From a virus (taxonomy: Duplodnaviria; Caudoviricetes), in IMG/VR virus record IMGVR_UViG_3300033074_001484, positions 32,001 to 96,000 of that record: 64,000 bases of DNA; one strand, 5' to 3'. The position numbers and the translations under genes are program-made. The notes beneath the pieces are model-generated. The model was given only the letters and a program-made list of their open reading frames with translations. It did no database searches and had not been told where the DNA came from. Below are positions 4,371 through 55,898 of this stretch, one piece after another. The first letter of the stretch is position 1, and the number at the start of each line of letters is the position of its first letter.

Positions 4371-4400
4371 CCTTGGTGTTATAGCGTAAACACTATGTTA
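4371..4400 (+). other. attI-like array head site, copy 1
   Basis: CCTTGGTGTTATAGCGTAAACACTATGTTA; part of a 70-nt repeat 68/70 identical to 15418-15487, with identity ending just after the GTT core. Confidence 0.7.
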
Positions 4401-12986: not shown

Positions 12987-14177
12987 CTACCCATTTGCTA
13001 AAGACAAATGGGCTTCGGGCTTCACGGACGACTGCTGATTGCTCAGTCTAACATCATCTCCACCCGTGTAATCGCCAGTTCCTGACGATATTGTTTTTAA
13101 TCCTTCTTTCAGAATGTTCTTTGCAGCATTTAAATCACGGTCTAAAACGTGTCCGTTTTTGCAAGTCCATTCTCTTATTGAAAGATTTAAGTCTTGATTT
13201 ATCCAACCACACTCACAACAGGTTTTACTTGATGGGTAAAAGCGATTGATTTTTACAACTTGTTTATTGTTCCAATCCGCTTTGTACTCTAAAAACCTAA
13301 CAAACGTACCCCAACTTGCATCTGCTATATGCTTTGATAGATTACTATTACTCATCATTCCTTTAACATTAAGGTCTTCCAAAGCAATTATGTCATAGTC
13401 AGAAACAAGTTGGTGTGATACCTTGTGCAATACATCTTGTCTTGTGTTGGATATTTTCTCGTGTATCTTGGCAACCTTTCGTTTTTGTCTTTCAAACGAA
13501 CTACTACCTTTTTGTTTACGAGAAAGGTGTTTTTGTGCTTTCGCTAAATCTTTTTCATATTTCTTGGTATATCGGTTATTCTTGAATTTTATTCCATCAG
13601 AAGTAATCGCAAAATCTTTCAATCCTAAATCTACACCACAAACAGCACCAGTCTTTTCTTTTGGTTGGTATTGTTCTTCGGTTAAAATTGATACATAATA
13701 TCTTCCAGTTGGTGTTTTGGAGAAAGTCATTTTACCAACTTCACCCTTTACTTCACGGTGAACAATGCACTTAATTCCTTCTTTGAATTTAGGTACGTGA
13801 ATCTTACCATTAATCAGCTTCGTGTGTTGTGGCACAGTAAAACTATTCTTTCGTTTCCTTGACTTAAATCTTGGGAACTTAGCGTTACCACGAAAGAAAT
13901 TAAGGTATGCGGTATCTAATGACCTCAAAGCAAACTGCAAGGTTTGACTATTTACTTCTTTGAGCCAAACAGTTTCTTCTTGCTTTTTTAATTCGGTTAA
14001 GGTCTTTGCTTGTGCGTAGTAGTTATCAGACTTTTTGTTCGCCTGATATTGTTCTTTACGCTCATTCAAAAAGTGATTATACACGAACCTAACACACCCA
14101 AAATGCTTATCCAACAACACTTTTTGCCCCTGTGTTGGTCTTAATTCAAAGCGATATGTCCTATGTATTGTTTTCAC
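12987..14177 (-). CDS. tnpB: RNA-guided endonuclease TnpB
   Basis: HTH N-terminus, RuvC GVDLG / IALEDL / DRDLNAA, Zn ribbon SKTCCECG. Confidence 0.95.
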   Translation of the reverse strand: MKTIHRTYRFELRPTQGQKVLLDKHFGCVRFVYNHFLNERKEQYQANKKSDNYYAQAKTLTELKKQEETVWLKEVNSQTLQFALRSLDTAYLNFFRGNAKFPRFKSRKRKNSFTVPQHTKLINGKIHVPKFKEGIKCIVHREVKGEVGKMTFSKTPTGRYYVSILTEEQYQPKEKTGAVCGVDLGLKDFAITSDGIKFKNNRYTKKYEKDLAKAQKHLSRKQKGSSSFERQKRKVAKIHEKISNTRQDVLHKVSHQLVSDYDIIALEDLNVKGMMSNSNLSKHIADASWGTFVRFLEYKADWNNKQVVKINRFYPSSKTCCECGWINQDLNLSIREWTCKNGHVLDRDLNAAKNILKEGLKTISSGTGDYTGGDDVRLSNQQSSVKPEAHLSLANG

Positions 14178-14268
14178 GTTTACAAATATACTCCTTTTAT
14201 ACTAAATACGCAAGTTTTTGTAAAAGTTCCGTTTTAGGGTAAAAACTTTCACAAAAACTTGCTTTATT

Positions 14269-14682
14269 ATGTCTAAAAAATCACAGTACATTTCTACAAA
14301 TCGTTCAAAGCACTACCTAAAGTGTCATCTTATCTTTGTTTGCAAGTACCGTAAAAAGTTGCTTGTTGGTCAGTTAAAAGAAGATATGCGTTCTATTCTT
14401 TTAAATATCACTTCTAATTCAGATTTTGAAATAGAGGTATTTGAAAGTGACCTTGACCATATTCATTTTCTTATTCGTTACATCCCTCGTTTATCCATCA
14501 CATCTATCGTTCGCAAGTTAAAGCAAGAGTCCACTTACCACATTTGGCACTCTCCACACCGTTCATTCCTATTCAAGCATTTTTGGCGTGAGCGTACTTT
14601 TTGGTCAGATGGTTACTTCGTTTGCTCTATTGGTGAGGCTTCACCAGATACTATTCGTCAATACATCCTCACACAGGGTTAG
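14269..14682 (+). CDS. tnpA: IS200/IS605 HUH (Y1) transposase
   Basis: HLIFVCKYR, DHIHFL (HUH), FWSDGYF, YILTQ. Confidence 0.95.
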   Translation: MSKKSQYISTNRSKHYLKCHLIFVCKYRKKLLVGQLKEDMRSILLNITSNSDFEIEVFESDLDHIHFLIRYIPRLSITSIVRKLKQESTYHIWHSPHRSFLFKHFWRERTFWSDGYFVCSIGEASPDTIRQYILTQG

Positions 14683-14733
14683 CGTTTGTCGCTTACATCC
14701 CATTGGCTGAAGACCAATGGGTTTTACGCTCCG

Positions 14734-14925
14734 TTATATAAAAGTCAATCTACTGGGCTGCACGTATACTGTATGCAGGTATGGTATTCTGAAATGTATT
14801 CCCGGTTTTAATAGTTTTACATCCTTACCCAACCATATTCTCATGCCTTGTTGCCACGGCAGTACTATTACCCACCACTTCAGCATGCTGGATAATTGTT
14901 CCCATATCTGTTTGAATATTTCCAT
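14734..14925 (-). pseudogene. Truncated SPFH/band-7 domain gene at the IS end
   Basis: VIVLPWQQGMRIWLGK...LKPGIHFRIPY is an SPFH N-terminus; ends at the IS boundary. Confidence 0.65.
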
Positions 14926-15228
14926 TATAGTTTATTTATTTCATCCATTTGTTATCACATGCACCCCCATTTTGGAAAGGGTTTGTCACCCCGGAGCACT
15001 TCTCTTTCAATAGCATCATTTTTCATTAAAGGAAATTCGTCATTCTTATTGGCCGGTACATGATTCTGACAGAGTTTCCAAAATCCCCGTTCGGACCAAT
15101 ATATACCTCCGCAGCAAGATATTTGCGTACAACCAACCACATCACAACTTCCTAAAATTTCGTGTTTATCTTCCATATAGATTGTAGTTTTATACAGATT
15201 ATATATAGTGTCAATTGTCTTCAACAGT

Positions 15229-15453
15229 TTAAAAGGGAAACGTTTCTTTTGAAATTCGTTGAAGTTTGACCCGAAGCGATTTTAATGAATAGAACTTTTT
15301 ACCAATCCAATATCCAACAGACCTATTGTTAATCGTTCTTTTCAAAATCCTTCCTGTCCGGATATTAATAACTTTTCCACATGAAGTTACTCTGTATTGT
15401 GCATAACCTACGATTATCCATTCAATCGCATAATGGTTTATTATTGAATACAT
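15229..15453 (-). CDS. NUMOD4-like small protein
   Basis: GYAQYRVTSCGKVINIRTGRILK motif. Confidence 0.55.
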   Translation of the reverse strand: MYSIINHYAIEWIIVGYAQYRVTSCGKVINIRTGRILKRTINNRSVGYWIGKKFYSLKSLRVKLQRISKETFPF

Positions 15454-15457
15454 TATG

Positions 15458-15487
15458 CCTTGGTGTTATAGCGTAAACACTATGTTA
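15458..15487 (+). other. attI-like array head site, copy 3
   Basis: Identical to 4371-4400. Confidence 0.7.
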
Positions 15488-15538
15488 TGCACAATGCGAT
15501 TTGACCACTCCGTCTAAAAATAACCCAAAGTAATTTTG

Positions 15539-15546
15539 TACATTTG
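15539..15546 (+). promoter_or_regulatory. Bacteroidota-type -7 promoter element of the R-M cassette
   Basis: TACATTTG matches TAnnTTTG, 30 nt upstream of the MTase start. Confidence 0.55.
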
Positions 15547-15576
15547 TAGTTGTGAATTGAATTAACGAAAAGGAAA

Positions 15577-16866
15577 ATGATGAATAAAACTAAACATACA
15601 ATTATAAATGGTGACAGCAGACAAATGAGCGAGCTTAAAGATGAAAGTGTTCATTTGATTGCAACTTCACCACCTTATTGGCAATTAAAAGACTACGGAA
15701 CGGAAAACCAAATTGGATTTCACGATGATTATGAAACTTACATTAATCACCTGAATTTGACTTGGCAAGAATGCTTCCGTGTTTTACATAAAGGCTGTCG
15801 TCTTTGTATTAATATTGGAGACCAATTTGCTCGTTCAACTTATTACGGTCGTTATAAAATCATTCCTATTCATACGGAAATTATTAAGTTTTGCGAAATG
15901 ATTGGCTTTGATTTTATGGGGCAAATTATTTGGCAAAAACAAACTACCATGAACACTTCGGGAGGCGCAAGTATTATGGGAAGCTACCCGAATCCAAGAA
16001 ATGGAATTGTGAAATTGGATTTTGAATATATTTTATTGTTCAAAAAACAAGGAAATGCACCCAAGCCGACTAAAGAACAAAAAGAAAACGCTTCAATGAC
16101 CAATGAAGAATGGAATACCTATTTTAATGGACATTGGTATTTTTCAGGAGCAAGACAAGATAAACATTTGGCAATGTTTCCTGAAGAATTGCCACACCGT
16201 TTAATCAAAATGTTTTCATTTCCAGGTGAAACGGTTTTAGACCCTTTTATGGGAAGTGGAACAACTGCTTTGGCTGCAAGAAACTTAAATAGAAATTCTG
16301 TTGGTTATGAAATTAACCCTGATTTTATTCCAATCATCAAAGAAAAAATCGGAATAGATGATGCTTTTACAAAAGTTGAAACCGAAATTATCAAACAACC
16401 AGAATTAAAAACGAATTTTGAAAAACGAATCAAACAATTGCCCTATCAATTTATTGACACGCATAAATTGGACAAGAAAATTGATGTAAAGAAAATTCAA
16501 TATGGTTCTAAAATCGATGCCAAGAGCACTGGAAAACGAGAAGAATTTTTTTCTGTAAAAGAAGTCATTAGCCCAGAACTTATCCGTTTGAATAACGACT
16601 TGGTAATTCGCTTGATTGGTATTAAGCAAAACCCTACAATTAACGGAAAGGCAACCGAATATTTAATCAATAAAGTTCGTGGCAAAAAAGTGTTTTTAAA
16701 GTACGATAAAGTAAAACACGATAAAGAAAACAATTTAATGGCTTATCTCTATCTCGAAAATAAAACTTTTATAAATGCTCATTTACTAAAAGAAAATTTA
16801 GCATTGGTAGATAATTCCATTGACTTTAAATACAAAACGAAATTTAACACATTTATCAATGGCTAA
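15577..16866 (+). CDS. N4/N6 DNA methyltransferase (beta class) with C-terminal SNase-like domain
   Basis: TSPPY and DPFMGSGTT motifs; IRLIGI...MAYLYL...FINAHLL tail. Confidence 0.9.
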   Translation: MMNKTKHTIINGDSRQMSELKDESVHLIATSPPYWQLKDYGTENQIGFHDDYETYINHLNLTWQECFRVLHKGCRLCINIGDQFARSTYYGRYKIIPIHTEIIKFCEMIGFDFMGQIIWQKQTTMNTSGGASIMGSYPNPRNGIVKLDFEYILLFKKQGNAPKPTKEQKENASMTNEEWNTYFNGHWYFSGARQDKHLAMFPEELPHRLIKMFSFPGETVLDPFMGSGTTALAARNLNRNSVGYEINPDFIPIIKEKIGIDDAFTKVETEIIKQPELKTNFEKRIKQLPYQFIDTHKLDKKIDVKKIQYGSKIDAKSTGKREEFFSVKEVISPELIRLNNDLVIRLIGIKQNPTINGKATEYLINKVRGKKVFLKYDKVKHDKENNLMAYLYLENKTFINAHLLKENLALVDNSIDFKYKTKFNTFING

Positions 16867-17560
16867 AGATTATTGTACAAAAACAGAAGGAGAAGGCTTC
16901 AAATTTAAACACGAAACTCTTTTAAATTATGCCTTAAACCGTTGGGGACTGAACAAAGCGTATAGTGTAGGAGCATTAGCCGAATTAATTCGGGATTGTG
17001 CCCCTAATGATTACAAAGAATGGGAAGAATATTATTTCACAAAAGGGAAACAAAAGAAGAAAAACGGAATAAATATTACTCGTGAGTATATAACTTCTTT
17101 AGGTCAAACGCTATACATTAAACTATCTGAAGTTGTTCAAAGCGAATTAGCTTCTATTACAGAAGAAGAATGTATAGACTATGCATATAATTTAGTTCTT
17201 CGTAGAACTTATGACGGTTATAGGACTGAAATCGAAACAATCTACGGACAATTGGAAGGTGCAATTGGAATGAAGATTGAGCCAGCACCTGATAATTGGG
17301 ACAGAGCATATAGTGTTGATTTTTTCGTTCAAGTTGGAGAAAAATATATCGGTATTCAGATTAAACCAATTGAATCCGGACAAGCCTTGAACCAATATCA
17401 ATGGATTGAAATGCACAAGGTAAATCACGAAAATTTCGAGAAGAAATTCGGAGGAAAAGTGTTTTTTGTTTACTCTACCAAAGTTGGAGGGAAAAAGAAA
17501 ATTTACAATGTCGAAGTTATTGAACAAATAATATCAGAAATAGAACGATTGAAAAAATAA
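16859..17560 (+). CDS. Type II restriction endonuclease, MjaI-like
   Basis: Coupled to the MTase; VGALAELIR..EWEEYY, VDFF..GIQIKP (PD-(D/E)xK-like). Confidence 0.75.
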   Translation: MAKDYCTKTEGEGFKFKHETLLNYALNRWGLNKAYSVGALAELIRDCAPNDYKEWEEYYFTKGKQKKKNGINITREYITSLGQTLYIKLSEVVQSELASITEEECIDYAYNLVLRRTYDGYRTEIETIYGQLEGAIGMKIEPAPDNWDRAYSVDFFVQVGEKYIGIQIKPIESGQALNQYQWIEMHKVNHENFEKKFGGKVFFVYSTKVGGKKKIYNVEVIEQIISEIERLKK

Positions 17561-17753
17561 CGCACTGTGCATAACATCGGTTTTGCAAAAGAGCGGGTTA
17601 AGTACAAAATTCAACGTCAGTAATCCTATCACCGCATAAGCCATTTTTATTTCCTTTTTTGTAATTTAGCAAATAGAAAATGGCTTATGCTACGGTTGTG
17701 CTAAACTGAACTTTTGTGCTTCTATTTCCGCTCCTTCGCAAAGCCGTTTCCCG

Positions 17754-18002
17754 TTAGCATACATTTTCGGAAAGTATGCCGTCCTTAATCAATCCTATCA
17801 TTCTATCGTAGTTCCACATATAAGGCGAATATTCATCTCCTTTTATATAAAGCACCGAGTTTTTAATAGTGTAATCCTTTGTAAAATACAATTCAGGTAT
17901 TCGCCTTTTATCGTACTGTCTGCGAGAAAAACGTATGCTAACACCAAGTATAGCACATTGCTTTATCTCTTTTCTGCGAAGTATTTTAGTAATCCAATTC
18001 AT
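17754..18002 (-). CDS. Hypothetical protein starting within an attC-like loop
   Basis: Crosses core as LGV|SI. Confidence 0.6.
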   Translation of the reverse strand: MNWITKILRRKEIKQCAILGVSIRFSRRQYDKRRIPELYFTKDYTIKNSVLYIKGDEYSPYMWNYDRMIGLIKDGILSENVC

Positions 18003-18064
18003 TTATCTATTTATTAAGTTTTGTGAATGCAACGTGCCATACTTGCGGCACGTTATGTGCCATT

Positions 18065-18601
18065 TTAAAGAGCGACACTACTCTCAACTTCATTTCCCCA
18101 AACATCCCACCCTTCGGGAACTTCACGAGCAAATAATTCTACCTTTGGTAAATCTCCTACAAGTCTAATTATTCTATCTCTTGTTTCTTGTGGCTTTTTA
18201 CTATGCTTGTCAATAGGGGCATAAATAACTGAATGAACACCCATATCTAATCTTTTTGGGTTGCCTTTTACAGCTAATAAGCATATTTCTGCATTACTCC
18301 TTGTCCATCTTCCCATTCCCCAAAATAAACTATCTGCTTTTTTGTTTTTCTTTACCCAAGTAAAAGCATTTGTTTTATATTGAAAACCCCAAGCATTTAT
18401 AACATCAAGAGCTTCTTGTAGCTTTGGAAAGGTAGCCCACATAAATAGTATGCAATCATCATCTGCTATTTCGTTTACAGGAAGGTTTTTTATATCCTCG
18501 ATATTCATTGTTCTGTAATGTCTTTCAGCACCTCCACGATGCAAACATTTGTCATCGTAACTCCAAGCAGGGTCTGCATAAATTATTTTATATCTCTTCA
18601 T
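18065..18601 (-). CDS. MT-A70 family adenine methyltransferase, cassette-borne
   Basis: IIYADPAW, LFMWAT, HSKKP, VELFAR, GWDVWGNE. Confidence 0.9.
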   Translation of the reverse strand: MKRYKIIYADPAWSYDDKCLHRGGAERHYRTMNIEDIKNLPVNEIADDDCILFMWATFPKLQEALDVINAWGFQYKTNAFTWVKKNKKADSLFWGMGRWTRSNAEICLLAVKGNPKRLDMGVHSVIYAPIDKHSKKPQETRDRIIRLVGDLPKVELFAREVPEGWDVWGNEVESSVAL

Positions 18602-18733
18602 CTTTCTAAATTAAATTCGTGAATAAAAACGGCACATAACAAGGGCTTTGCGTAATAGCCCTATCAAGTGTCGTGGTTTATTTTAAGTTTCTACTAAGGG
18701 CTACTACGCAAAGCCCCAAAACGTTGTAGGCAA

Positions 18734-18979
18734 TTAGAAAGCTAATCCAGCACATTCTTCACAGCATGTATGTCCATCATTCTCTTTTGGTTTTCGGCAC
18801 ATCATACAAGTTAATCCGCTTTCTAACTGTTCGCTTCGCCCTACAACATCGTGTTTACGCAATTGCTTGGCTTCGTTTTCCAAGTCAATTATGTAATCTT
18901 CTAAATCACTTTCATATTGGATATGGTTAAAATTTCTCGTTCCTGTCCAATATTTATCATCTGTTCTTTTTGGTCTCAT
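18734..18979 (-). CDS. Cys-rich hypothetical protein starting within an attC-like loop
   Basis: HDV|VGRSEQL; CxxC...CxxC tail. Confidence 0.6.
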   Translation of the reverse strand: MRPKRTDDKYWTGTRNFNHIQYESDLEDYIIDLENEAKQLRKHDVVGRSEQLESGLTCMMCRKPKENDGHTCCEECAGLAF

Positions 18980-28731: not shown

Positions 28732-29343
28732 TTATACAGACTCACTCACTGATGTCTTATTATATATAGCTAAATGTTGTTGCACAATACTCATGGCAGC
28801 AATATAGGGTTGCGATTTAGCCTTGTTCATGTTGCGTAATTTATTGTGTACTTCTTCCAAATATATTATTGCGAATCCCGGATCATGCTCAACAATGGTT
28901 GTGGTGTTATGAATTATATCACAGCATTTAATTGTTTGTGCTTCATAAGATGCAGCACCCCACCGCATTGCTTCATATTCTTTTCGCAGTTTTCGGTTCA
29001 ATTGTGGGTAACGCTCTTTGGTAAATTCATCGGTCAATTCCAACACATAATTTAATACATTGACTGGGTTAATATTTTTCAACCACCCTACACGGTTAAC
29101 AGTAAATATAAATTCAGATAGTCCACCGGGTGTGGTGTGTGTATCTTCCAACACATCGTGTAACAGTGCAGCGCAAACCATGTCATCGGTTCCACCATAA
29201 TCACGAACCAATTGTGCGACTGGTATACAATGTCCGTCAAAATACGGTTCACCTGTGTACTTACGACGTTGTTCCCTATGTGCGATTCGCCCATATTCAA
29301 TATATGGATAATACTTGTCTTCAATGTCAATTTCGGAGTGCAT
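28732..29343 (-). CDS. HD-domain (p)ppGpp hydrolase-like (small alarmone hydrolase)
   Basis: AH.EQRRKYTGEPY..H, ALLHDVLEDT, IKCCDIIHN. Confidence 0.8.
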   Translation of the reverse strand: MHSEIDIEDKYYPYIEYGRIAHREQRRKYTGEPYFDGHCIPVAQLVRDYGGTDDMVCAALLHDVLEDTHTTPGGLSEFIFTVNRVGWLKNINPVNVLNYVLELTDEFTKERYPQLNRKLRKEYEAMRWGAASYEAQTIKCCDIIHNTTTIVEHDPGFAIIYLEEVHNKLRNMNKAKSQPYIAAMSIVQQHLAIYNKTSVSESV

Positions 29344-29727
29344 AATAATGATTATTTGGAGTACCAGACAATGTGAGTGAACCGGGATACAACATCATCC
29401 GGCAGTTTGATAGTGTCTTCCGATTTAATTCCCCCAACACGGCCATACATTATCTGACCATCAACGACCGATGTCGTTTCGATGCGGATATTACTTTCTT
29501 CGGAATTAGTGGCCAAATAACCATGACCATCATCAAAACCAATAAATCCTTGATTTACTGATGCAATAAAGTCAGATATTTTCATCATATCCAACTCAAC
29601 ACTTTCTATCTGGTCAATGGGAGATGTTTTGTATTCAAATGGTATCATGTCATTCCTCTTCTTTACTATAAATACCACTATCTTACGTTTCCCGTACAGT
29701 GAATTTAAAAATTTGAATATGTAATAG

Positions 29728-29886
29728 TGACGAGGGAAGGACTCGAACCTCCAAACACACATTAAAATAATACCACTAAAATACCGAAGGATACGTTAGA
29801 AGTGTATTGGTTTTTTTAGTTGGTTACAATGTGTTGTGGGGACACTTATTTTCAATGGGCCGCTTTACCAATTAGCGTACCTCGTC
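29728..29886 (-). ncRNA. tRNA-like RNA with about 85 extra nt in the anticodon/variable region
   Basis: Perfect acceptor GACGAGG/CCTCGTC, D and T arms; long internal hairpin. Confidence 0.7.
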
Positions 29887-29949
29887 ATAAAAGAAAAAAA
29901 TGTGGGGGGAAATTCAATATCCTTCGGTCCCCCCCACTTGTGCCGTAAC

Positions 29950-30090
29950 CCTCTATCGAAAATTTTGTCTAACTTAAACGATGGTGCTACCACTACACTA
30001 CGAGTCCTTGTAAAAATATAACACAAAAAGTATTGAGGACCCGCAGGGAATTGAACCCCGACTTATCGTTTGATTATTTCGATGGGCGTT
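29950..30090 (-). ncRNA. Circularly permuted tRNA-like element
   Basis: T-arm and 3' acceptor (30037-30060) precede the 5' acceptor and D arm (29984-30007) on the - strand. Confidence 0.55.
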
Positions 30091-30199
30091 TAGGCCAATA
30101 ATGCCATAGCCAAGACTTCTGTTACAACACTAAACACCCCACATTTGGTAACGTGTTAAGTAGTTGAATCTAAGTCCAATGCTATAACAGTATCTTCAG

Positions 30200-30997
30200 T
30201 TACCCGACACCGTTGTGTAGGTAATTAAACAGTTTTTCAGCGGTCATGTCGGATGGTATTGCCACCACGTCATTCACCTCTTTCAAGGCAGAGATGACTG
30301 CGGTCAACAGGCGCGACCTCCGTGCGAGTATTTCTGCTCGTTGACGGTGCGACAGCATGCCTGTGAATTTTTGAGTGGTATATTCACCCAGTTCCATCAC
30401 CGTGTCCTTGGTGGCGATTTTGGGGTCATATTTCGCCCCATCGCCCAATTTGCTCAGGTTGGGGTCAGTGAGAATGTACGCCTCTTTGACAGTTGTCTTG
30501 GCCGTGCCGGAAATTAATTCCGACTCGTGGATATCGCGTCCGACATACATTTCATTGGTCGTGCGCTTCCAATTTTCGTCATCATTCCTGACCGGTATAT
30601 TTTCATACATCTCCTTCAATGTCCCAAATTCCAACAGGCTCTTTAGGCGCAGGAGTTCCAACGCTGTGAATCTTCCGAAGTTGACGTTGTCAACGACCAA
30701 CACCACTGTGTTGGATTGATTACCATTCGTCCGCTCCAACGAAAATGCGGCATCAATATAATCCGCAGCAGCACTTTCGAGATACTTTAATTTTTCCTCG
30801 ACGGTGGTTACCACCAGTTTGTTCGACCGTTTGGTTGGTTCGTCGATGGTGCCGGGGAGGGGCGTATATGTGCGTTTTTCGCCAACGAACGCCCCTTGCG
30901 AACCCTTAAAGAATTTGACATATTCTTCAAATCCTTTTTTGTACGACCCCGCCAGATGGTCAGTCTTTGCGAGTAATACTGTTAATTTCGTTTCCAT
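30200..30997 (-). CDS. Conserved-looking hypothetical protein upstream of tRNA-like RNAs
   Basis: About 265-aa ORF, visibly more GC-rich, own TATCTTTG promoter at 31016-31023. Confidence 0.8.
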   Translation of the reverse strand: METKLTVLLAKTDHLAGSYKKGFEEYVKFFKGSQGAFVGEKRTYTPLPGTIDEPTKRSNKLVVTTVEEKLKYLESAAADYIDAAFSLERTNGNQSNTVVLVVDNVNFGRFTALELLRLKSLLEFGTLKEMYENIPVRNDDENWKRTTNEMYVGRDIHESELISGTAKTTVKEAYILTDPNLSKLGDGAKYDPKIATKDTVMELGEYTTQKFTGMLSHRQRAEILARRSRLLTAVISALKEVNDVVAIPSDMTAEKLFNYLHNGVG

Positions 30998-31873
30998 TGT
31001 TAAGTGTTTAGGCAACAAAGATACAACACGTGGGAAACTTAGCTACTACATTAAAACATATTTTTTTAGCGAATATGTTAAATATGAATATAAATGTTTC
31101 GGAACATTGTAACAGTTACTTTCCGAAATCAATATGTTAATTGGTTGATACACATAATAATATACGGTATTGTGTGTATGCAGTAGTTACCCACAAGCAC
31201 TACTTAGTACTTCAAAGTGAGTAAAAAAGAAAAAGCTATCAAGTGTATTATAATACCTCATTCCTTCATCCACAGCCTTTAGTTTGTCATTCTCAAAGCA
31301 ATGTTCGTTTATAAAGTAAAGTCCTCCATACTTATCAATTTCAATTCTTCCAGTATAAAGGCTTTTACTTCCGTGCCATTTAAACTCAACTTTAGTTCCT
31401 TGTTTTAATAGCTTTTTCTTTTCTTCTGTTAATTGGTTTTCTCCTTGTATCATAATTTTTAGTTTACTATACCGTGCCAGTGTATAACACGGTATAAAAT
31501 TCATTAAAACGAAATTTTATACCTGTCCGTTATATGCAATACTTTTCACTGAGTTCTTTACATACATCATACAGTTCCTCAGCACCTTCACCAGTCAAAT
31601 AATGGCTGTGTGCTACTTTTAATTTCCACCATTCATCATCAGGTAGCATTTCTTTTAATTTTACCAATAATCGGTCAGCCCTTATTTGACTTTGCCATGC
31701 ACCACCTTTGTTTCTAAATTCGTTCAAAGTACTGCATATAACAGCGTGTATATTCAATTGCTGCTTCTGTGCTTCTTTTTTAGTTTTATGTTTACTCATA
31801 ATTTTGTTTTTTTAATTAAGTTTATCAGTTATTTACGCAACTGAAATATACACACAACCATTATGCACAAGCA

Positions 31874-32371
<498 letters not shown>

Positions 32372-37881: not shown

Positions 37882-38426
37882 AATTAAAATTTATATGTGT
37901 ATTAATAAGCATGAACTATTGTGCCGCCAACTTGGTGCCCATGTACAAGTATCCCCTGTGCGATATGCCAACGGGTAGAACTGGACCATATCTTACCGGT
38001 CGAATCCACACATGTAATTCTATCGAACGACTTCGATACCAAAATTATTGGTGGTGTGAGTTTTGGAAACTCACAATCCGGGTTGTTGCATATGTCCGAT
38101 GTACAAGACGCCATCAGGCATAATATTAATAACAGTCTCAACATAACTCTAATTTAATTGTGTGTGGTATGATTCGGGTTGCGTTGTACCATACTTCATA
38201 AGGTATTTTCATACAATAATCGCAATCACATGGTTCCGGTTCTAACTCATAAGTACTCCATTGCTCTACATAGAATAATTCCTCAGCAATTATTTTCTTT
38301 TGAGCTAATCTCGCTTTACCTTTACTCGGAATTACTGCTGCGCATATACCGCATTTATCATGACCATGTATTTTTGACGCATTTTTACTCATTCCGTATG
38401 GTCGCATTATTTCTCCTTTTTAATTC

Positions 38427-38519
38427 TGGTGCCTCCGGTAGGACTCGAACCTACAATGTTTACCCTGTGGGACTGGTTTTACAGACCAGTGCGAGACCAA
38501 CCATCCTCGCAGCGTCGGC
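38427..38519 (-). tRNA. tRNA-Tyr(GTA)
   Basis: Loop CTGTAAA, variable arm, encoded CCA; two acceptor mismatches. Confidence 0.8.
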
Positions 38520-38867
38520 ATAAAATGGCGGGAGCCATAACCATCCCGCCATTCCGTAAGGTTTCATTACATTGTCTTCTCTTTTTAGTTTTTAACTGGA
38601 ACTGGAAAATCAATTGCTGATAAAAGCGTCATCAATCCATAATCGGCTTCTTCCCAAGTATTTCCACGGATTGTGAGACCAAATGTACCAGTACCTAAAC
38701 ATGCTACAAAATTTGGACCGATCAATATCGGCCTTCTTGCCCAAAATTGCTTCAATTCTTTTTTTGAATATTCAAAACTTTGGAAGTGCTGCAAAAACGG
38801 ATACATATCATTATATGATGTAATCGTAATAACTGGTATTCTAACCATTTTAATTATCATTGGTTTG

Positions 38868-38955
38868 TACTCCTGTCCGGACTCAAATCACATAACCGTT
38901 CTTAGCTGCTGGATTTTAAAAATACCACATGTCTGGCAATTCCACTACAGAAGGA
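38868..38955 (-). pseudogene. Degenerate tRNA-Leu-like
   Basis: GTGGAATTGCCAGACA D-loop and TTTGAGTCC T-loop remnants, stems broken. Confidence 0.5.
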
Positions 38956-53465: not shown

Positions 53466-55898
53466 TTATCCTATTTTAATTAACAAATTTGATAGATCAT
53501 TAAATTTACTTACTTTCAATTTCAACCCCCTTACAGTGTATAATTCTTCCGGTTCTGCATCAACTATTAATTCTGAAATATGATTTAGTAAGGTCAAATC
53601 CGGGGATGTATGCATGTCAATGTATATAACAACATCAGTGTCAAACGAATCAACATTTGTGTTGAATTTTATTTTTGATGCAAGTGGCATCATAGTGTTA
53701 GGTTGTTCTCGCGCCACATATTGTTCAATATAAAATTGTGGCATGTCCGTTAACAATAAATCACAAAATGGTTCCACATATGCTATAGCGTCCATTGTCG
53801 CATTTGTTAATACAATGGTCTTATGATATCTTGGTGGTACAATGGGTTTTAGGTGTTCATCATGTTTTACCATACACCCCCATTTACGAATGAAATTTCG
53901 TGTACTTTTAATATTTTGTTGTTCCCATTCTTGACTATTTTTTCCCGGCGTTGTTAACGTTGGATTGTATCTGCTCCCACGACACGTCATGTGATAGACA
54001 TGTCCCTCCCATGTTTGAATAAATTTAGTACCGTTTAAATGGAATCTATTAAAAATATCAGAATTATGCAATGCTATGAATCCGGTACCCCCAATAAACA
54101 TGTTTGTACGTCTCACATCTAAATCATACACAAATACTTCTGATACATCGTCTGATTCCAATAATATCTCAATATCAGTATCTTTAAAATCAGTCTGTAC
54201 CGAACTGATGTTCCAAACCCCAGTCTTTCCTTTAGATTCTTGGTGCCTGACTCTGAATTTAGCTTCCGGAAAACATCGCATTAATAAAAAATATATACCA
54301 GTCGTCAATTTTTCTGACACGGAAGTACTTTTCCATGTCACATATGATAATGAATCTTTTCCATATAACATTAATGGGTCAATTGTCAACCAACACATTT
54401 CCCCATTACGAACAATTGATTTACCAAGATGTCCATCACCCAGTAAATACCCGTACAGAAAAGACTTTTGATATACCAACGGTAAATTAAAAATGAACTC
54501 AGGTACACATTTAGTATACGAACCATTTCCTAATAAATTTTTTAGCCATTGTGCAATTGAACTATTTGATGTTCGATAAGTGTGTATACCATCAGTGTTA
54601 CGATAGTTAATGAAACTGTCCCCAAACAATGCTTCTGATTTTTGTTTAATCATATTTACAACATCAAAATCCCTTTCTCTAATAAGCACATCGGTCTTAT
54701 ACGCACCCCCATCTGCACAGAAAAATCCTAAAAATTCACATATGTCATGTAGCTGCGTACTATTTCCATATTCATCAATATCATAAATAACTGGTAATTT
54801 ATGTAGTACCTCATTAATATAAACCTCACCAAAATCATTGAAATCAATAGTTGTTAATTGGTTACGTCGCACCCAACTACCATGTTTGATAGGTTCCCAT
54901 AATTCCGTCTGTGAGGTACACTCATCAGCAGTTATAGGTTCTAAATTAGATTTTATCAGTGAATGATCATTTGTAACGACCACCTCACCCCATTTGGTTT
55001 TAATTCTACGTAATCTATTTTTGGTAACTTTATGGCGAATAATTGCACGTAATTTTGACACTCCAATAGTTCCATTTTTAGATGGTGACATTACTCGGAT
55101 ATCCATATCGCGTAGATCAATGTATTCTTTACCATCGTTTCGTTTTCTAATAAACTGCTTATACTTTTCCCATAATTCAGCGATTGTTGACAGTTTAGTT
55201 ATACCATTTTCCACATAAAATACTAACGTTTCCCCCACCGTGCTGTCCTCTTTACTTTGCGGGGCAAAAAATGAATCGTGGCCCCCTATTTCTTGAAATT
55301 CAGATTTCCAGAATGCCCACGGTGCAAATATCCCCTCTGTTATTGAAGGTCTCTGATATGTAGAATTCAACTCACGATACCATTCCAAAAATTTGTCCTC
55401 TTCAAAATCTTCGGGTTCTACTCCAAAGTTTTGAATAATTTTTTCAGGACCGGGGGGATGAAGTGGCGGTTCAATTCGAGTGAGTGATACAATTGTTTTT
55501 GTAATTGGAACGTTTCGCATTTGCTGGCCGGTATTCGCATCTATGAGCGGCGTTGGATACGGAGCGTACATATGCTTTTCAATCACATCCAATGCACCGG
55601 GACACAAGAACATATCTGCATGATAAATCATACATAAATCATACTTAGCTACCTCATTGACTAATCTATCATACAAAATAGTGTGTCCAAGTCGCTGTCC
55701 AGACTCGTTAACGATATAAGAAAGATCGCTATCAAGTGTCGCCTGATTTTCCAACCACTCTCTTGTACCATCATTACTCGCATCATCTGCGACGCAAACC
55801 TGTACTGTATGGTTTCCTTGATGTTTACGAATGCTTTCATATGACCACTTCAGATATTTGAGATTATTTCTGGATGGAATGATTAATGATATTTGCAT
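53466..55898 (-). CDS. GT2 glycosyltransferase containing an intein
   Basis: ISLIIPSRN, ADDASNDGT, HADM, IGGHD, ED|SD split by the intein. Confidence 0.9.
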   Translation of the reverse strand: MQISLIIPSRNNLKYLKWSYESIRKHQGNHTVQVCVADDASNDGTREWLENQATLDSDLSYIVNESGQRLGHTILYDRLVNEVAKYDLCMIYHADMFLCPGALDVIEKHMYAPYPTPLIDANTGQQMRNVPITKTIVSLTRIEPPLHPPGPEKIIQNFGVEPEDFEEDKFLEWYRELNSTYQRPSITEGIFAPWAFWKSEFQEIGGHDSFFAPQSKEDSTVGETLVFYVENGITKLSTIAELWEKYKQFIRKRNDGKEYIDLRDMDIRVMSPSKNGTIGVSKLRAIIRHKVTKNRLRRIKTKWGEVVVTNDHSLIKSNLEPITADECTSQTELWEPIKHGSWVRRNQLTTIDFNDFGEVYINEVLHKLPVIYDIDEYGNSTQLHDICEFLGFFCADGGAYKTDVLIRERDFDVVNMIKQKSEALFGDSFINYRNTDGIHTYRTSNSSIAQWLKNLLGNGSYTKCVPEFIFNLPLVYQKSFLYGYLLGDGHLGKSIVRNGEMCWLTIDPLMLYGKDSLSYVTWKSTSVSEKLTTGIYFLLMRCFPEAKFRVRHQESKGKTGVWNISSVQTDFKDTDIEILLESDDVSEVFVYDLDVRRTNMFIGGTGFIALHNSDIFNRFHLNGTKFIQTWEGHVYHMTCRGSRYNPTLTTPGKNSQEWEQQNIKSTRNFIRKWGCMVKHDEHLKPIVPPRYHKTIVLTNATMDAIAYVEPFCDLLLTDMPQFYIEQYVAREQPNTMMPLASKIKFNTNVDSFDTDVVIYIDMHTSPDLTLLNHISELIVDAEPEELYTVRGLKLKVSKFNDLSNLLIKIG
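54063..55244 (-). mobile_element. Intein with LAGLIDADG homing endonuclease (394 aa)
   Basis: STVGET start, VTNDHSL block B, FLGFFCADG and FLYGYLLGDG, VYDLDV...HN|S. Confidence 0.92.

What the first reader, a model, noticed from the sequence alone, without database searches (positions are those of the whole stretch)
15484..17755. Complete type II R-M system captured as the newest cassette
Seen: MTase plus MjaI-like endonuclease with its own TAnnTTTG promoter fills the first cassette of array 3, in classical (+) orientation, with a 14/15 IR and an elaborate hairpin starting right after the stop codon. Inference: a host-derived defence cassette integrated into the phage site, implying a cassette pool shared between host and phage. 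It may serve self-methylation or exclusion of competing phages.
Basis: partly seen in the sequence, partly recalled or inferred. Interest (0 to 1): 0.7.

Follow-up and report, generated by a model that had tools for sequence, protein, structure and literature searches.

The report
Restriction-modification cassette in phage array
An intact restriction-modification gene pair sits in a large Bacteroidota phage as an integron-type gene cassette, and the same cassette with the same ends sits in cassette arrays of Bacteroidota bacteria, so phage and host share one pool of mobile defence genes.

Summary
Observation confirmed; interpretation supported. Window 15484-17755 is one discrete cassette. It holds a 15-nt left arm (GTTA...), a Bacteroidota-type promoter, a full-length beta-class SPPY methyltransferase (15577-16866) and a full-length MjaI-family endonuclease (16859-17560, 8-nt overlap). 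It ends with the complementary right arm (...TAAC) and a 177-nt attC-like hairpin.

A Chitinophagaceae MAG contig is 92% identical, and its homology starts exactly at base 15484, about 200 nt from a divergent IntI/Xer-like recombinase. A Porphyromonadaceae MAG carries the cassette (87%) with both arms identical, inside a three-cassette array. The cassette's hairpin resembles bacterial sites more than the phage's 17 other sites (p = 5e-4).

In the phage it abuts a conserved 'head' found at three array starts, and it keeps the bacterial orientation, opposite to most neighbours.

CTAG, the MjaI site, occurs 2 times against 71 expected. Self-protective methylation therefore adds little, and use against host or rival DNA, or selfish carriage, is likelier.

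No recombinase was found in the window.

attC clusters in virulent phages and R-M cassettes in integrons are published. This scan has also reported the Bacteroidota integron-like system several times on other DNA. The new point is an orthologous, complete R-M cassette on both sides.

The parts
15424..15483 (.). Conserved 'head' that precedes the first cassette. It contains the 16-mer at 15458-15473 and the 5' end of the minus-strand NUMOD4 ORF 15229-15453. It is a candidate attI-like landing site.
   Evidence: The 16-mer occurs exactly at 4371, 11994 and 15458. The heads at 4371 and 15458 share about 100 nt and diverge exactly at the GTTA of the first cassette.
15484..15498 (+). Left terminal arm of the cassette (R'-type, starts GTTA). 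The predicted crossover is at G|TT.
   Evidence: 14/15 complementary to 17561-17575. Identical 15-mer at the start of the orthologous cassette in L192 and L196, where homology begins.
15531..15546 (+). Two overlapping TAnnTTTG boxes (Bacteroidota -7 type), imported with the cassette.
   Evidence: Read from the sequence. Conserved in bacterial homologues. DNA homology to bacterial copies covers this region (from 15509 in L181-184; from 15484 in L192 and L196).
15577..16866 (+). DNA methyltransferase, beta-class N4/N6 family with an SPPY motif and a C-terminal SNase-like domain.
   Evidence: PF01555 E 8e-46 and PF00565 E 1.6e-6. Motifs seen. 91% identical at full length to L183. Best solved relative is 2zie, E 5e-57. 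dN/dS 0.034 against L192.
16859..17560 (+). MjaI-family type II restriction endonuclease. Its start overlaps the MTase stop by 8 nt.
   Evidence: PF09568 E 1.6e-37 over the full model. 1743 homologues, the best 92% identical over 100% of the length. One non-synonymous and 18 synonymous codon differences against L192, dN/dS 0.013.
17561..17575 (+). Right terminal arm (R''-type, ends TAAC), starting directly after the stop codon.
   Evidence: Identical 15-mer in L196 and L206.
17576..17752 (+). attC-like imperfect hairpin of the cassette: a short 5' spacer (A-T), a long stem, then a 6-nt 3' spacer before the next GTTA.
   Evidence: DNA fold z = -4.0. Fits the window-wide pattern TAAC-A-stem...stem-N4-6-GTTA. 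About 78% identical to sites in bacterial arrays: z 10.6 to L206, 7.9 to L196, 10.5 to L179.
17625..17700 (+). Extra 76-nt segment in the loop, carrying a perfect 14-bp inner hairpin (17634-17690). Without it the site is 107 nt, close to the roughly 124-nt bacterial sites.
17753..17755 (+). GTT of the next cassette (body 17753-17942), which marks the end of the R-M cassette.

Best explanation
Window 15484-17755 is one integron-type gene cassette carrying a complete type II restriction-modification operon.

Origin. The cassette came from a pool of cassettes that circulates in Bacteroidota chromosomes. There it sits in arrays next to IntI/Xer-related tyrosine recombinases.

Capture (inferred). 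The excised cassette recombined through its folded attC-like site with the conserved 'head' of one of the phage's cassette arrays. The recombinase was supplied in trans by the host, or is encoded outside this window. Site polarity fixed the orientation. That is why the operon points against most neighbouring phage genes and depends on the promoter it brought along.

Function (inferred). Both genes look functional, and the likely target is CTAG. The phage has almost no CTAG, so the endonuclease is harmless to it and the methylase is hardly needed for self-protection. The most likely benefit is cutting unmodified host or competing-phage DNA. Neutral carriage of a selfish R-M unit is the alternative.

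What is shown and what is inferred. Shown: the anatomy, intact genes under purifying selection, orthologous cassettes with identical ends in bacteria, a bacterial-type attC, and CTAG depletion. Inferred: the recombination mechanism, the direction and timing of transfer, the enzyme's specificity, and its role in the phage.
For: - Complete operon with the family hallmarks.
- Purifying selection: dN/dS 0.013-0.038 against L192 and L196.
- Same boundaries in bacteria:
  - L192: 92.1% identity over 15484-17552, starting at the first base of the left arm, about 200 nt from a divergent 356-aa tyrosine recombinase on a contig that also carries prpB.
  - L196: 87.1% identity over 15484-17603, both arms identical, in an array of three cassettes.
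  - A more distant three-gene version has its own conserved arms in four different contexts (L001, L178-180) and lies next to the recombinase in L187.
- The cassette's attC is nearer to 14 bacterial sites (mean z 6.8) than to the phage's 17 other sites (mean z 3.2), Mann-Whitney p = 5e-4.
- The window has 18 attC-like sites, all of one polarity, against 1-8 hits of any kind in shuffles.
- 17 bodies are bracketed by GTTA/TAAC arms. All twelve pairs that match 13 of 14, and the 12-of-14 pairs I checked, mismatch at arm position 11 (A.C on +, G.T on -). The bacterial cassettes show the same mismatch.
- Bodies of this kind do move. The MT-A70 body 18052-18640 recurs at 87-93% identity in unrelated viral contigs, with homology ending at its arms.
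- In bacterial arrays genes run with site polarity, and R-M keeps that relation in the phage.
- The head is conserved at three array starts.
- CTAG: 2 observed against 71 expected (O/E 0.03), compared with 0.88 in 80 loci of related phages.
- MjaI is CTAG-specific (PMC2615612). M.MjaI and M.BfaI are beta-class SPPY m4C enzymes (PMC5867850).
- An attC of Polaribacter phage P12002L, which has the same site architecture, was recombined by IntI1 (PMC9892861).
Against: - No tyrosine recombinase was found in the six frames of the window (best E 0.44). None was found in four near-complete but distant relatives of the phage.
- The bacterial recombinases score below the NCBIfam integron-integrase cut-offs. 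The one aligned in detail (L179) lacks the IntI-specific insertion. Canonical integron chemistry is therefore assumed, not shown.
- The junction upstream of R-M is not a typical attC-like hairpin.
- A 12-nt perfect complement of the left arm lies inside the NUMOD4 ORF (15396-15407) and is unexplained.
- Many chromosomal homologues have no cassette ends.
- CTAG specificity is inferred from family membership only.
- Pairwise dN/dS cannot assign constraint to the phage branch.
- Phage identity rests on IMG/VR relatives of one gene, phage-type accessory genes, and unchecked notes on neighbouring windows.
Confidence: 0.8

Rival explanations
1. The R-M cassette is a selfish passenger. It entered the phage array by the same site-specific route but gives the phage no benefit. 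It is tolerated only because the genome has almost no CTAG.
For: CTAG occurs 2 times against 71 expected, so neither enzyme has much to do on phage DNA. R-M units behave as selfish mobile elements (established knowledge). The operon is antisense to the surrounding transcription.
Against: Both genes are intact with a very low dN/dS. The imported promoter is intact. A useless 2.3-kb insert should decay or be lost from a packaged genome.
Confidence: 0.3
2. The operon entered the phage by illegitimate or microhomology-driven recombination rather than site-specific recombination. The flanking arms and hairpins would be phage regulatory or terminator structures, like the promoter-stem-loop cassettes of T4-type phages.
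For: There is no recombinase in the window. The upstream junction is atypical. A 10-12-nt repeat of the arm lies in the NUMOD4 ORF.
Against: Both arms and the attC are already attached to the operon in bacterial arrays, so they arrived with it. The phage-side breakpoint is exactly at GTTA, after a head shared by three arrays. Site polarity is uniform.
Confidence: 0.08
3. The transfer went the other way: the cassette arose in phages and spread to bacteria.
For: Phage arrays are rich in methyltransferase cassettes. The direction cannot be rooted with the data in hand.
Against: The family was found in at least 152 places in the one-genome-per-species collection, across several phyla. Only four relatives, about 40% identical, turned up in IMG/VR. 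The attC is of the bacterial type. Orientation and promoter follow the bacterial pattern.
Confidence: 0.07
4. The segment is an assembly chimera between a phage and a Bacteroidota bacterium from the same sample.
For: The closest REase copy is about 97% identical in DNA to a bacterial MAG. attC-like repeats can confuse assemblers.
Against: Both joins fall exactly on cassette boundaries where phage and bacterial sequence share only GTTA/TAAC. That is too short for assembly k-mers. The MTase half is only about 90% identical to any copy found.
Confidence: 0.03

Closest known systems
[quoted passage not shown] Polaribacter phage P12002L (Qi et al. 2023, PMC9892861)
   Same: A Bacteroidota phage with no integrase, and DNA methyltransferase genes separated by attC sites. 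My scan of NC_028924 shows the same TAAC-A-stem...stem-N5-GTTA architecture and GTTA/TAAC arms around its MTase genes, which also run antisense to site polarity. One of its attCs was recombined by IntI1 in that paper.
   Different: That paper reports orphan methyltransferases and two or three sites per phage. Here the cassette holds a complete R-M pair with the endonuclease, the window holds at least 18 sites, and an orthologous cassette with identical ends is found in bacterial arrays.
Integron gene cassettes encoding defence systems in bacterial integrons (Darracq et al. 2024 preprint, 10.1101/2024.07.02.601686; R-M cassettes are cited in PMC9892861)
   Same: A defence system packaged as a cassette ending in a folded recombination site, found in arrays beside a tyrosine recombinase, and recurring with the same ends in different genomes.
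   Different: The neighbouring recombinases score below integron-integrase thresholds, and the L179 type lacks the IntI-specific insertion. The paired R arms are about 15 nt with a fixed mismatch, rather than the 7-nt core. IntegronFinder surveys report almost no integrons in Bacteroidetes (PMC9024848).
MjaI / M.MjaI and the isospecific MthZI and BfaI systems (CTAG)
   Same: The endonuclease matches the whole RE_MjaI model. The methylase is beta-class with SPPY, as described for the CTAG m4C enzymes (PMC5867850).
   Different: The methylase is 429 aa with an added SNase-like C-terminal domain, against 303-364 aa for those enzymes. Specificity and the modified base are untested.
IS91-associated tyrosine recombinases, the closest relatives of IntI (Smyshlyaev et al., bioRxiv 10.1101/542381)
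   Same: In L179 and L185-187 the array-side recombinase is followed by an IS91-type Y2 transposase gene (on L179 this is inferred from an overlapping cut ORF). It has IntI4 (2a3v) as its best solved relative and lacks the insertion.
   Different: That work does not describe adjacent cassette arrays, at least in the passages I read. The recombinase next to the closest R-M copy (L192) is only 33% identical to this group, and no Y2 gene lies next to it in the 4.2 kb read.
Virus-encoded R-M systems, such as chlorovirus PBCV-1 and phage P1 (from my own knowledge, not checked here)
   Same: A virus carrying both enzymes, with a proposed use against host or competitor DNA.
   Different: Here the pair is a recognisable mobile cassette. 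The virus also avoids the site almost completely instead of relying on methylation.

Membership tests
Type II restriction-modification system | DNA methyltransferase with AdoMet-binding and catalytic motifs | tested here: met
   PF01555 E 8e-46. SPPY and FMGSGTT are in beta-class order. 2zie E 5e-57.
Type II restriction-modification system | Separate cognate endonuclease gene adjacent to the methylase | tested here: met
   PF09568 E 1.6e-37. The genes overlap by 8 nt. The pairing is conserved in every homologous locus read.
Type II restriction-modification system | Cleavage and protective methylation at one defined site (expected CTAG) | not testable with these tools
   Indirect evidence only: family membership; 6 CTAG against 28 expected in the pooled homologous R-M genes; CTAG-poor flanks in most carrier genomes.
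Integron gene cassette | Ends in an attC: an imperfect palindrome R''-L''...L'-R' with inner AAC and GTT | tested here: met
   Structure and fold. Homologous to sites in bacterial arrays. The IntegronFinder/HattCI attC models were not available, so this is a structural test only.
Integron gene cassette | The same unit recurs with the same boundaries in different arrays or genomes | tested here: met
   L192, L196 and L206 against the window.
Integron gene cassette | Usually one promoterless ORF expressed from Pc | tested here: not met
   Two genes with their own conserved promoter-like boxes. Such exceptions are known among defence and toxin-antitoxin cassettes.
Integron (complete) | IntI integrase with the IntI-specific additional domain, in cis with attI | tested here: not met
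   None in the window. The bacterial neighbours score 172-190 bits on TIGR02249 against a cut-off of 265. The L179 protein aligns to 2a3v with residues 185-241 of IntI4 missing.
Integron (complete) | Recombination at G|TT of the site by the integrase | not testable with these tools
   The only evidence is from the literature, for a site of the same architecture in phage P12002L with IntI1 (PMC9892861).
CALIN (attC cluster without integrase) | Two or more attC sites close together with no integrase nearby | tested here: met
   18 sites of one polarity at 4.6-7, 17.5-21.5 and 31.4-33.7 kb, with no recombinase. This uses my own pattern detector, not IntegronFinder.

The most novel reading that the evidence does not exclude
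Large Bacteroidota phages take full part in an integron-like cassette economy run by recombinases that are not classical IntI. They hold counter-defence methylases and also take complete host defence systems from the same pool. This phage, purged of CTAG, uses a captured CTAG restriction enzyme as a weapon against host or rival-phage DNA.
Probability: 0.3. Interest if true: 0.8.

Novelty: new variant of a known kind. Interest (0 to 1): 0.68.

Why it matters
Qi et al. (2023) proposed that phages with attC sites can draw on and spread integron cassettes, but they showed no cassette shared between a phage and a bacterium.

Here one defined cassette has the same 15-nt ends, promoter and attC in bacterial arrays and in a phage array. 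That is direct comparative evidence for a common pool.

The cargo is a complete defence system, not only an anti-restriction methylase. The carrier has lost almost every copy of the likely target site. Together these make 'defence genes turned into phage weapons' directly testable.

The finding also adds to the evidence that Bacteroidota, where standard tools find almost no integrons, have a widespread integron-like system with non-canonical recombinases.

Tried and rejected
- DNA searches of the GenBank phage collection with the cassette, a core region and the neighbouring cassette found nothing useful.
- No whole genome is held for the window.
- A close-relative scan of IMG/VR for the endonuclease found nothing. 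A profile scan found four relatives at about 40% identity.
- My first comparison, with L001-L005 by BLAST, suggested that homology stops at the genes and that the flanks are phage-specific. I dropped that conclusion. Reading the flanks showed attC-like sites in L001, L003 and L178-180, and closer relatives share the arms themselves.
- I considered the IS200/IS605 TnpA (14269-14682) as the mobiliser, because Y1 transposases act on hairpins. I set it aside. It belongs to a self-contained tnpA/tnpB element 800 nt away, and the bacterial arrays sit beside tyrosine recombinases. It is not excluded.
- A purely regulatory reading of the hairpins (terminators, promoter stem-loops) does not explain identical arms in bacteria.
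- Exact searches for the head motif in IMG/VR and JGI metagenomes found nothing, so no empty or alternative allele of this site was obtained.
- Recombinase searches were all negative: in the window and in related phage genomes.
- Rfam gave no match at 14600-18800.
- My strict attC detector under-calls sites with bulged stems (4 of 74 loci, while 12-16 are visible by eye). No firm fraction of homologues with cassette ends is given.
Full report
**What is there.**
The + strand of 15484-17755 carries two overlapping genes among mostly minus-strand genes.
- The first gene (15577-16866, 429 aa) is a DNA methyltransferase. It matches PF01555 at E 8e-46 and has a weak C-terminal SNase-like match.
- It has the SPPY and FMGSGTT motifs in beta-class order. 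Its best solved relative is 2zie.
- The second gene (ATG 16859 to stop 17560, 233 aa) matches the whole RE_MjaI model at E 1.6e-37.
- Both are full length. The methylase is 91% identical, without a gap, to a bacterial homologue. The endonuclease has homologues up to 92% identical over its whole length.
- The genes overlap by 8 nt.
- Two TAnnTTTG boxes lie about 30 nt upstream and are conserved in bacterial copies.

**The boundaries.**
- 15484-15498 and 17561-17575 are 14/15 complementary. The right arm starts directly after the stop codon.
- A long imperfect hairpin follows (17578-17746; DNA fold z = -4.0). It ends six bases before the next GTTA at 17753.
- These features are not peculiar to this unit. 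The window holds 17 bodies bracketed by arms that start GTTA and end TAAC.
- All twelve arm pairs that match 13 of 14 mismatch at arm position 11, as do the 12-of-14 pairs I checked. The mismatch is A.C on the + strand, hence G.T on the minus strand.
- Between the bodies lie 18 hairpins of the form TAAC-A-stem...stem-N4-6-GTTA, all with the same polarity. Shuffled sequence gives 1-8 hits of any kind.
- This is the layout of attC sites in an integron array, with the R boxes extended to about 15 nt.

**Such bodies move.**
- The neighbouring MT-A70 body (18052-18640) recurs at 93, 90 and 87% identity in viral contigs that share nothing else with the window. Homology ends at its arms.
- In one of these contigs, a GC-richer phage fragment, it is followed by a hairpin and a second methylase body of the same design.

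**The decisive comparison.**
- My first look at five metagenomic homologues suggested that similarity stops at the genes. That was misleading.
- Reading their flanks showed attC-like sites after the endonuclease in several of them. A three-gene version of the operon has its own conserved arms in four different chromosomal contexts.
- A scan of one genome per prokaryote species then found much closer copies.
- L192 is a Chitinophagaceae MAG contig that also carries prpB. It is 92.1% identical over 15484-17552, and the match begins at the first base of the left arm. Upstream it has unrelated AT-rich DNA and, 200 nt away, a divergent 356-aa tyrosine recombinase.
- L196 is a Porphyromonadaceae MAG. 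It is 87.1% identical over 15484-17603, has both 15-nt arms identical to the window's, and sits in an array of three cassettes separated by attC-like sites of 124-126 nt.
- L206 (Lutibacter) has the identical right arm.
- The cassette therefore exists with the same ends in bacteria and in the phage.

**The attC came along.**
- After removing a 76-nt insert in its loop, the window's site is 107 nt.
- It aligns at 77-78% identity with the sites behind the orthologous cassettes (z 10.6 and 7.9).
- It is closer to 14 bacterial sites (mean z 6.8) than to the phage's own 17 sites (mean z 3.2; Mann-Whitney p = 5e-4).

**Where it landed.**
- Immediately left of the cassette is a conserved head. A 16-mer occurs exactly three times in the window (0.3 expected). 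Each time it lies 10 nt before the GTTA of a first cassette.
- Two of the heads share about 100 nt and diverge exactly at that GTTA.
- By analogy with attI this is where new cassettes enter. That analogy is the only basis for calling the R-M cassette 'newest'.
- In bacterial arrays the genes run with site polarity. In the phage most resident genes run against it, as in Polaribacter phage P12002L. The R-M operon keeps the bacterial relation.
- Site-specific insertion would explain why the operon opposes its neighbours and needs its own promoter.

**The enzyme that does it is not identified.**
- A profile of the bacterial recombinases finds nothing in the six frames of the window.
- Four near-complete but distant relatives of the phage (153-177 kb) have no PF00589 protein.
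- The bacterial neighbours are IntI/Xer-like but score below the NCBIfam integron-integrase cut-offs.
- One group has IntI4 as its best solved relative, lacks the IntI-specific insertion, and is followed by an IS91-type Y2 transposase. This matches the published remark that IS91 recombinases are IntI's closest relatives (bioRxiv 10.1101/542381).
- The unit therefore cannot be filed under canonical integrons. It is a CALIN-like array of an integron-like system.

**Function.**
- MjaI cuts CTAG (PMC2615612), and the CTAG methylases are beta-class SPPY m4C enzymes (PMC5867850).
- CTAG occurs twice in the 64-kb window against 71 expected (O/E 0.03). It is by far the most avoided 4-mer palindrome.
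- The O/E is 0.88 in 80 loci of related phages, 0.28 in P12002L, and 0.22 in a bacterial chromosome segment that carries the system.
- The phage thus hardly needs the methylase and is nearly immune to the endonuclease.
- dN/dS between the phage and bacterial copies is 0.013-0.038, so the genes have been kept functional along that path. The phage branch cannot be separated out.
- I favour use against unmodified host or rival DNA. Selfish carriage remains plausible. Nothing here tests either.

**Prior knowledge.**
- attC clusters in virulent phages, including a Bacteroidota phage with methylase cassettes, are published, as is recombination of such sites by IntI1 (PMC9892861).
- R-M and other defence cassettes in bacterial integrons are known (10.1101/2024.07.02.601686).
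- IntegronFinder surveys find almost no integrons in Bacteroidetes (PMC9024848).
- Earlier reports of this scan describe the same Bacteroidota integron-like system, including phage arrays and R-M cassettes, on other DNA. I used them only as leads.
- What this window adds is a complete R-M cassette that is orthologous, end to end, between bacterial arrays and a phage array, in a phage stripped of the likely target site.

**Limits.**
- No reads were available, so misassembly is excluded only by argument.
- That the window is a phage rests on three things: about 80 IMG/VR relatives of one glycosyltransferase gene, including complete genomes with terminal repeats; typical phage accessory genes; and unchecked notes on adjacent windows.
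- A 12-nt perfect complement of the left arm inside the NUMOD4 ORF (15396-15407) remains unexplained.

Noticed in passing
window 12987-14682: A complete IS200/IS605-type element lies between two cassette arrays, about 800 nt from the R-M cassette. It has tnpB on the minus strand (396 aa; OrfB_IS605 plus Cas12f-like TNB) and a divergent Y1 tnpA (137 aa), with a 19-nt inverted repeat between them.
   Followed up: partly
window 53466-55898 (-): The 810-aa GT2 glycosyltransferase carries an intein-like insert of about 390 aa (roughly 54064-55246). The insert has an endonuclease match and is absent from about 80 IMG/VR relatives, whose genes are about 400 codons.
   Followed up: partly
window 15396-15407: A 12-nt perfect complement of the R-M cassette's left arm lies inside the NUMOD4 ORF (15229-15453, -). 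With the arm it closes a 100-nt three-way fold (-37 kcal/mol as RNA). The paralogous head at 4371 has two mismatches there. Whether this is chance, coding constraint or part of the landing site is unknown.
   Followed up: partly
window, all GTTA/TAAC arm pairs (e.g. 4743/5217, 18052/18640, 31529/31742): All twelve arm pairs that match 13 of 14, and the 12-of-14 pairs I checked, mismatch at position 11 (A on the left arm, C on the right). The stem is therefore perfect with a G.T wobble only on the minus strand. The same is seen in bacterial cassettes (L001, L196). This may be a strand-choice signal.
   Followed up: partly
window, whole: Besides CTAG (O/E 0.03), GATC is depleted (O/E 0.46).
   Followed up: partly
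window 15577-17560 vs L192: Synonymous divergence differs fivefold between the two genes (MTase dS 0.70, REase dS 0.14). The cassette is therefore a mosaic, or its 3' half was exchanged more recently.
   Followed up: no
L185, L186, L187, L179: In Bacteroidia MAGs, an operon of an IntI-like recombinase and an IS91-type Y2 transposase sits next to arrays of defence cassettes (Bpu10I-type R-M, MjaI-type R-M, ANT, HEPN). On L179 the transposase is inferred from an overlapping cut ORF. In L185 and L186 the operon is itself bracketed by inverted GTTC.../...GAAC arms with hairpins. In L187 the MjaI-type cassette has GmrSD and HEPN genes inserted between M and R.
   Followed up: partly
L169 (Polaribacter phage P12002L, NC_028924) 29200-32300 and 37900-38950: The published phage shows more attC-like junctions and GTTA/TAAC-bracketed methylase bodies than the two attC sites tested in the paper.
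   Followed up: partly
L166 (IMGVR_UViG_3300010356_001077) reverse strand 420-560: A run of GGGTAC-type hexamer repeats inside an ORF of the GC-rich phage fragment that carries the MT-A70 cassette.
   Followed up: no
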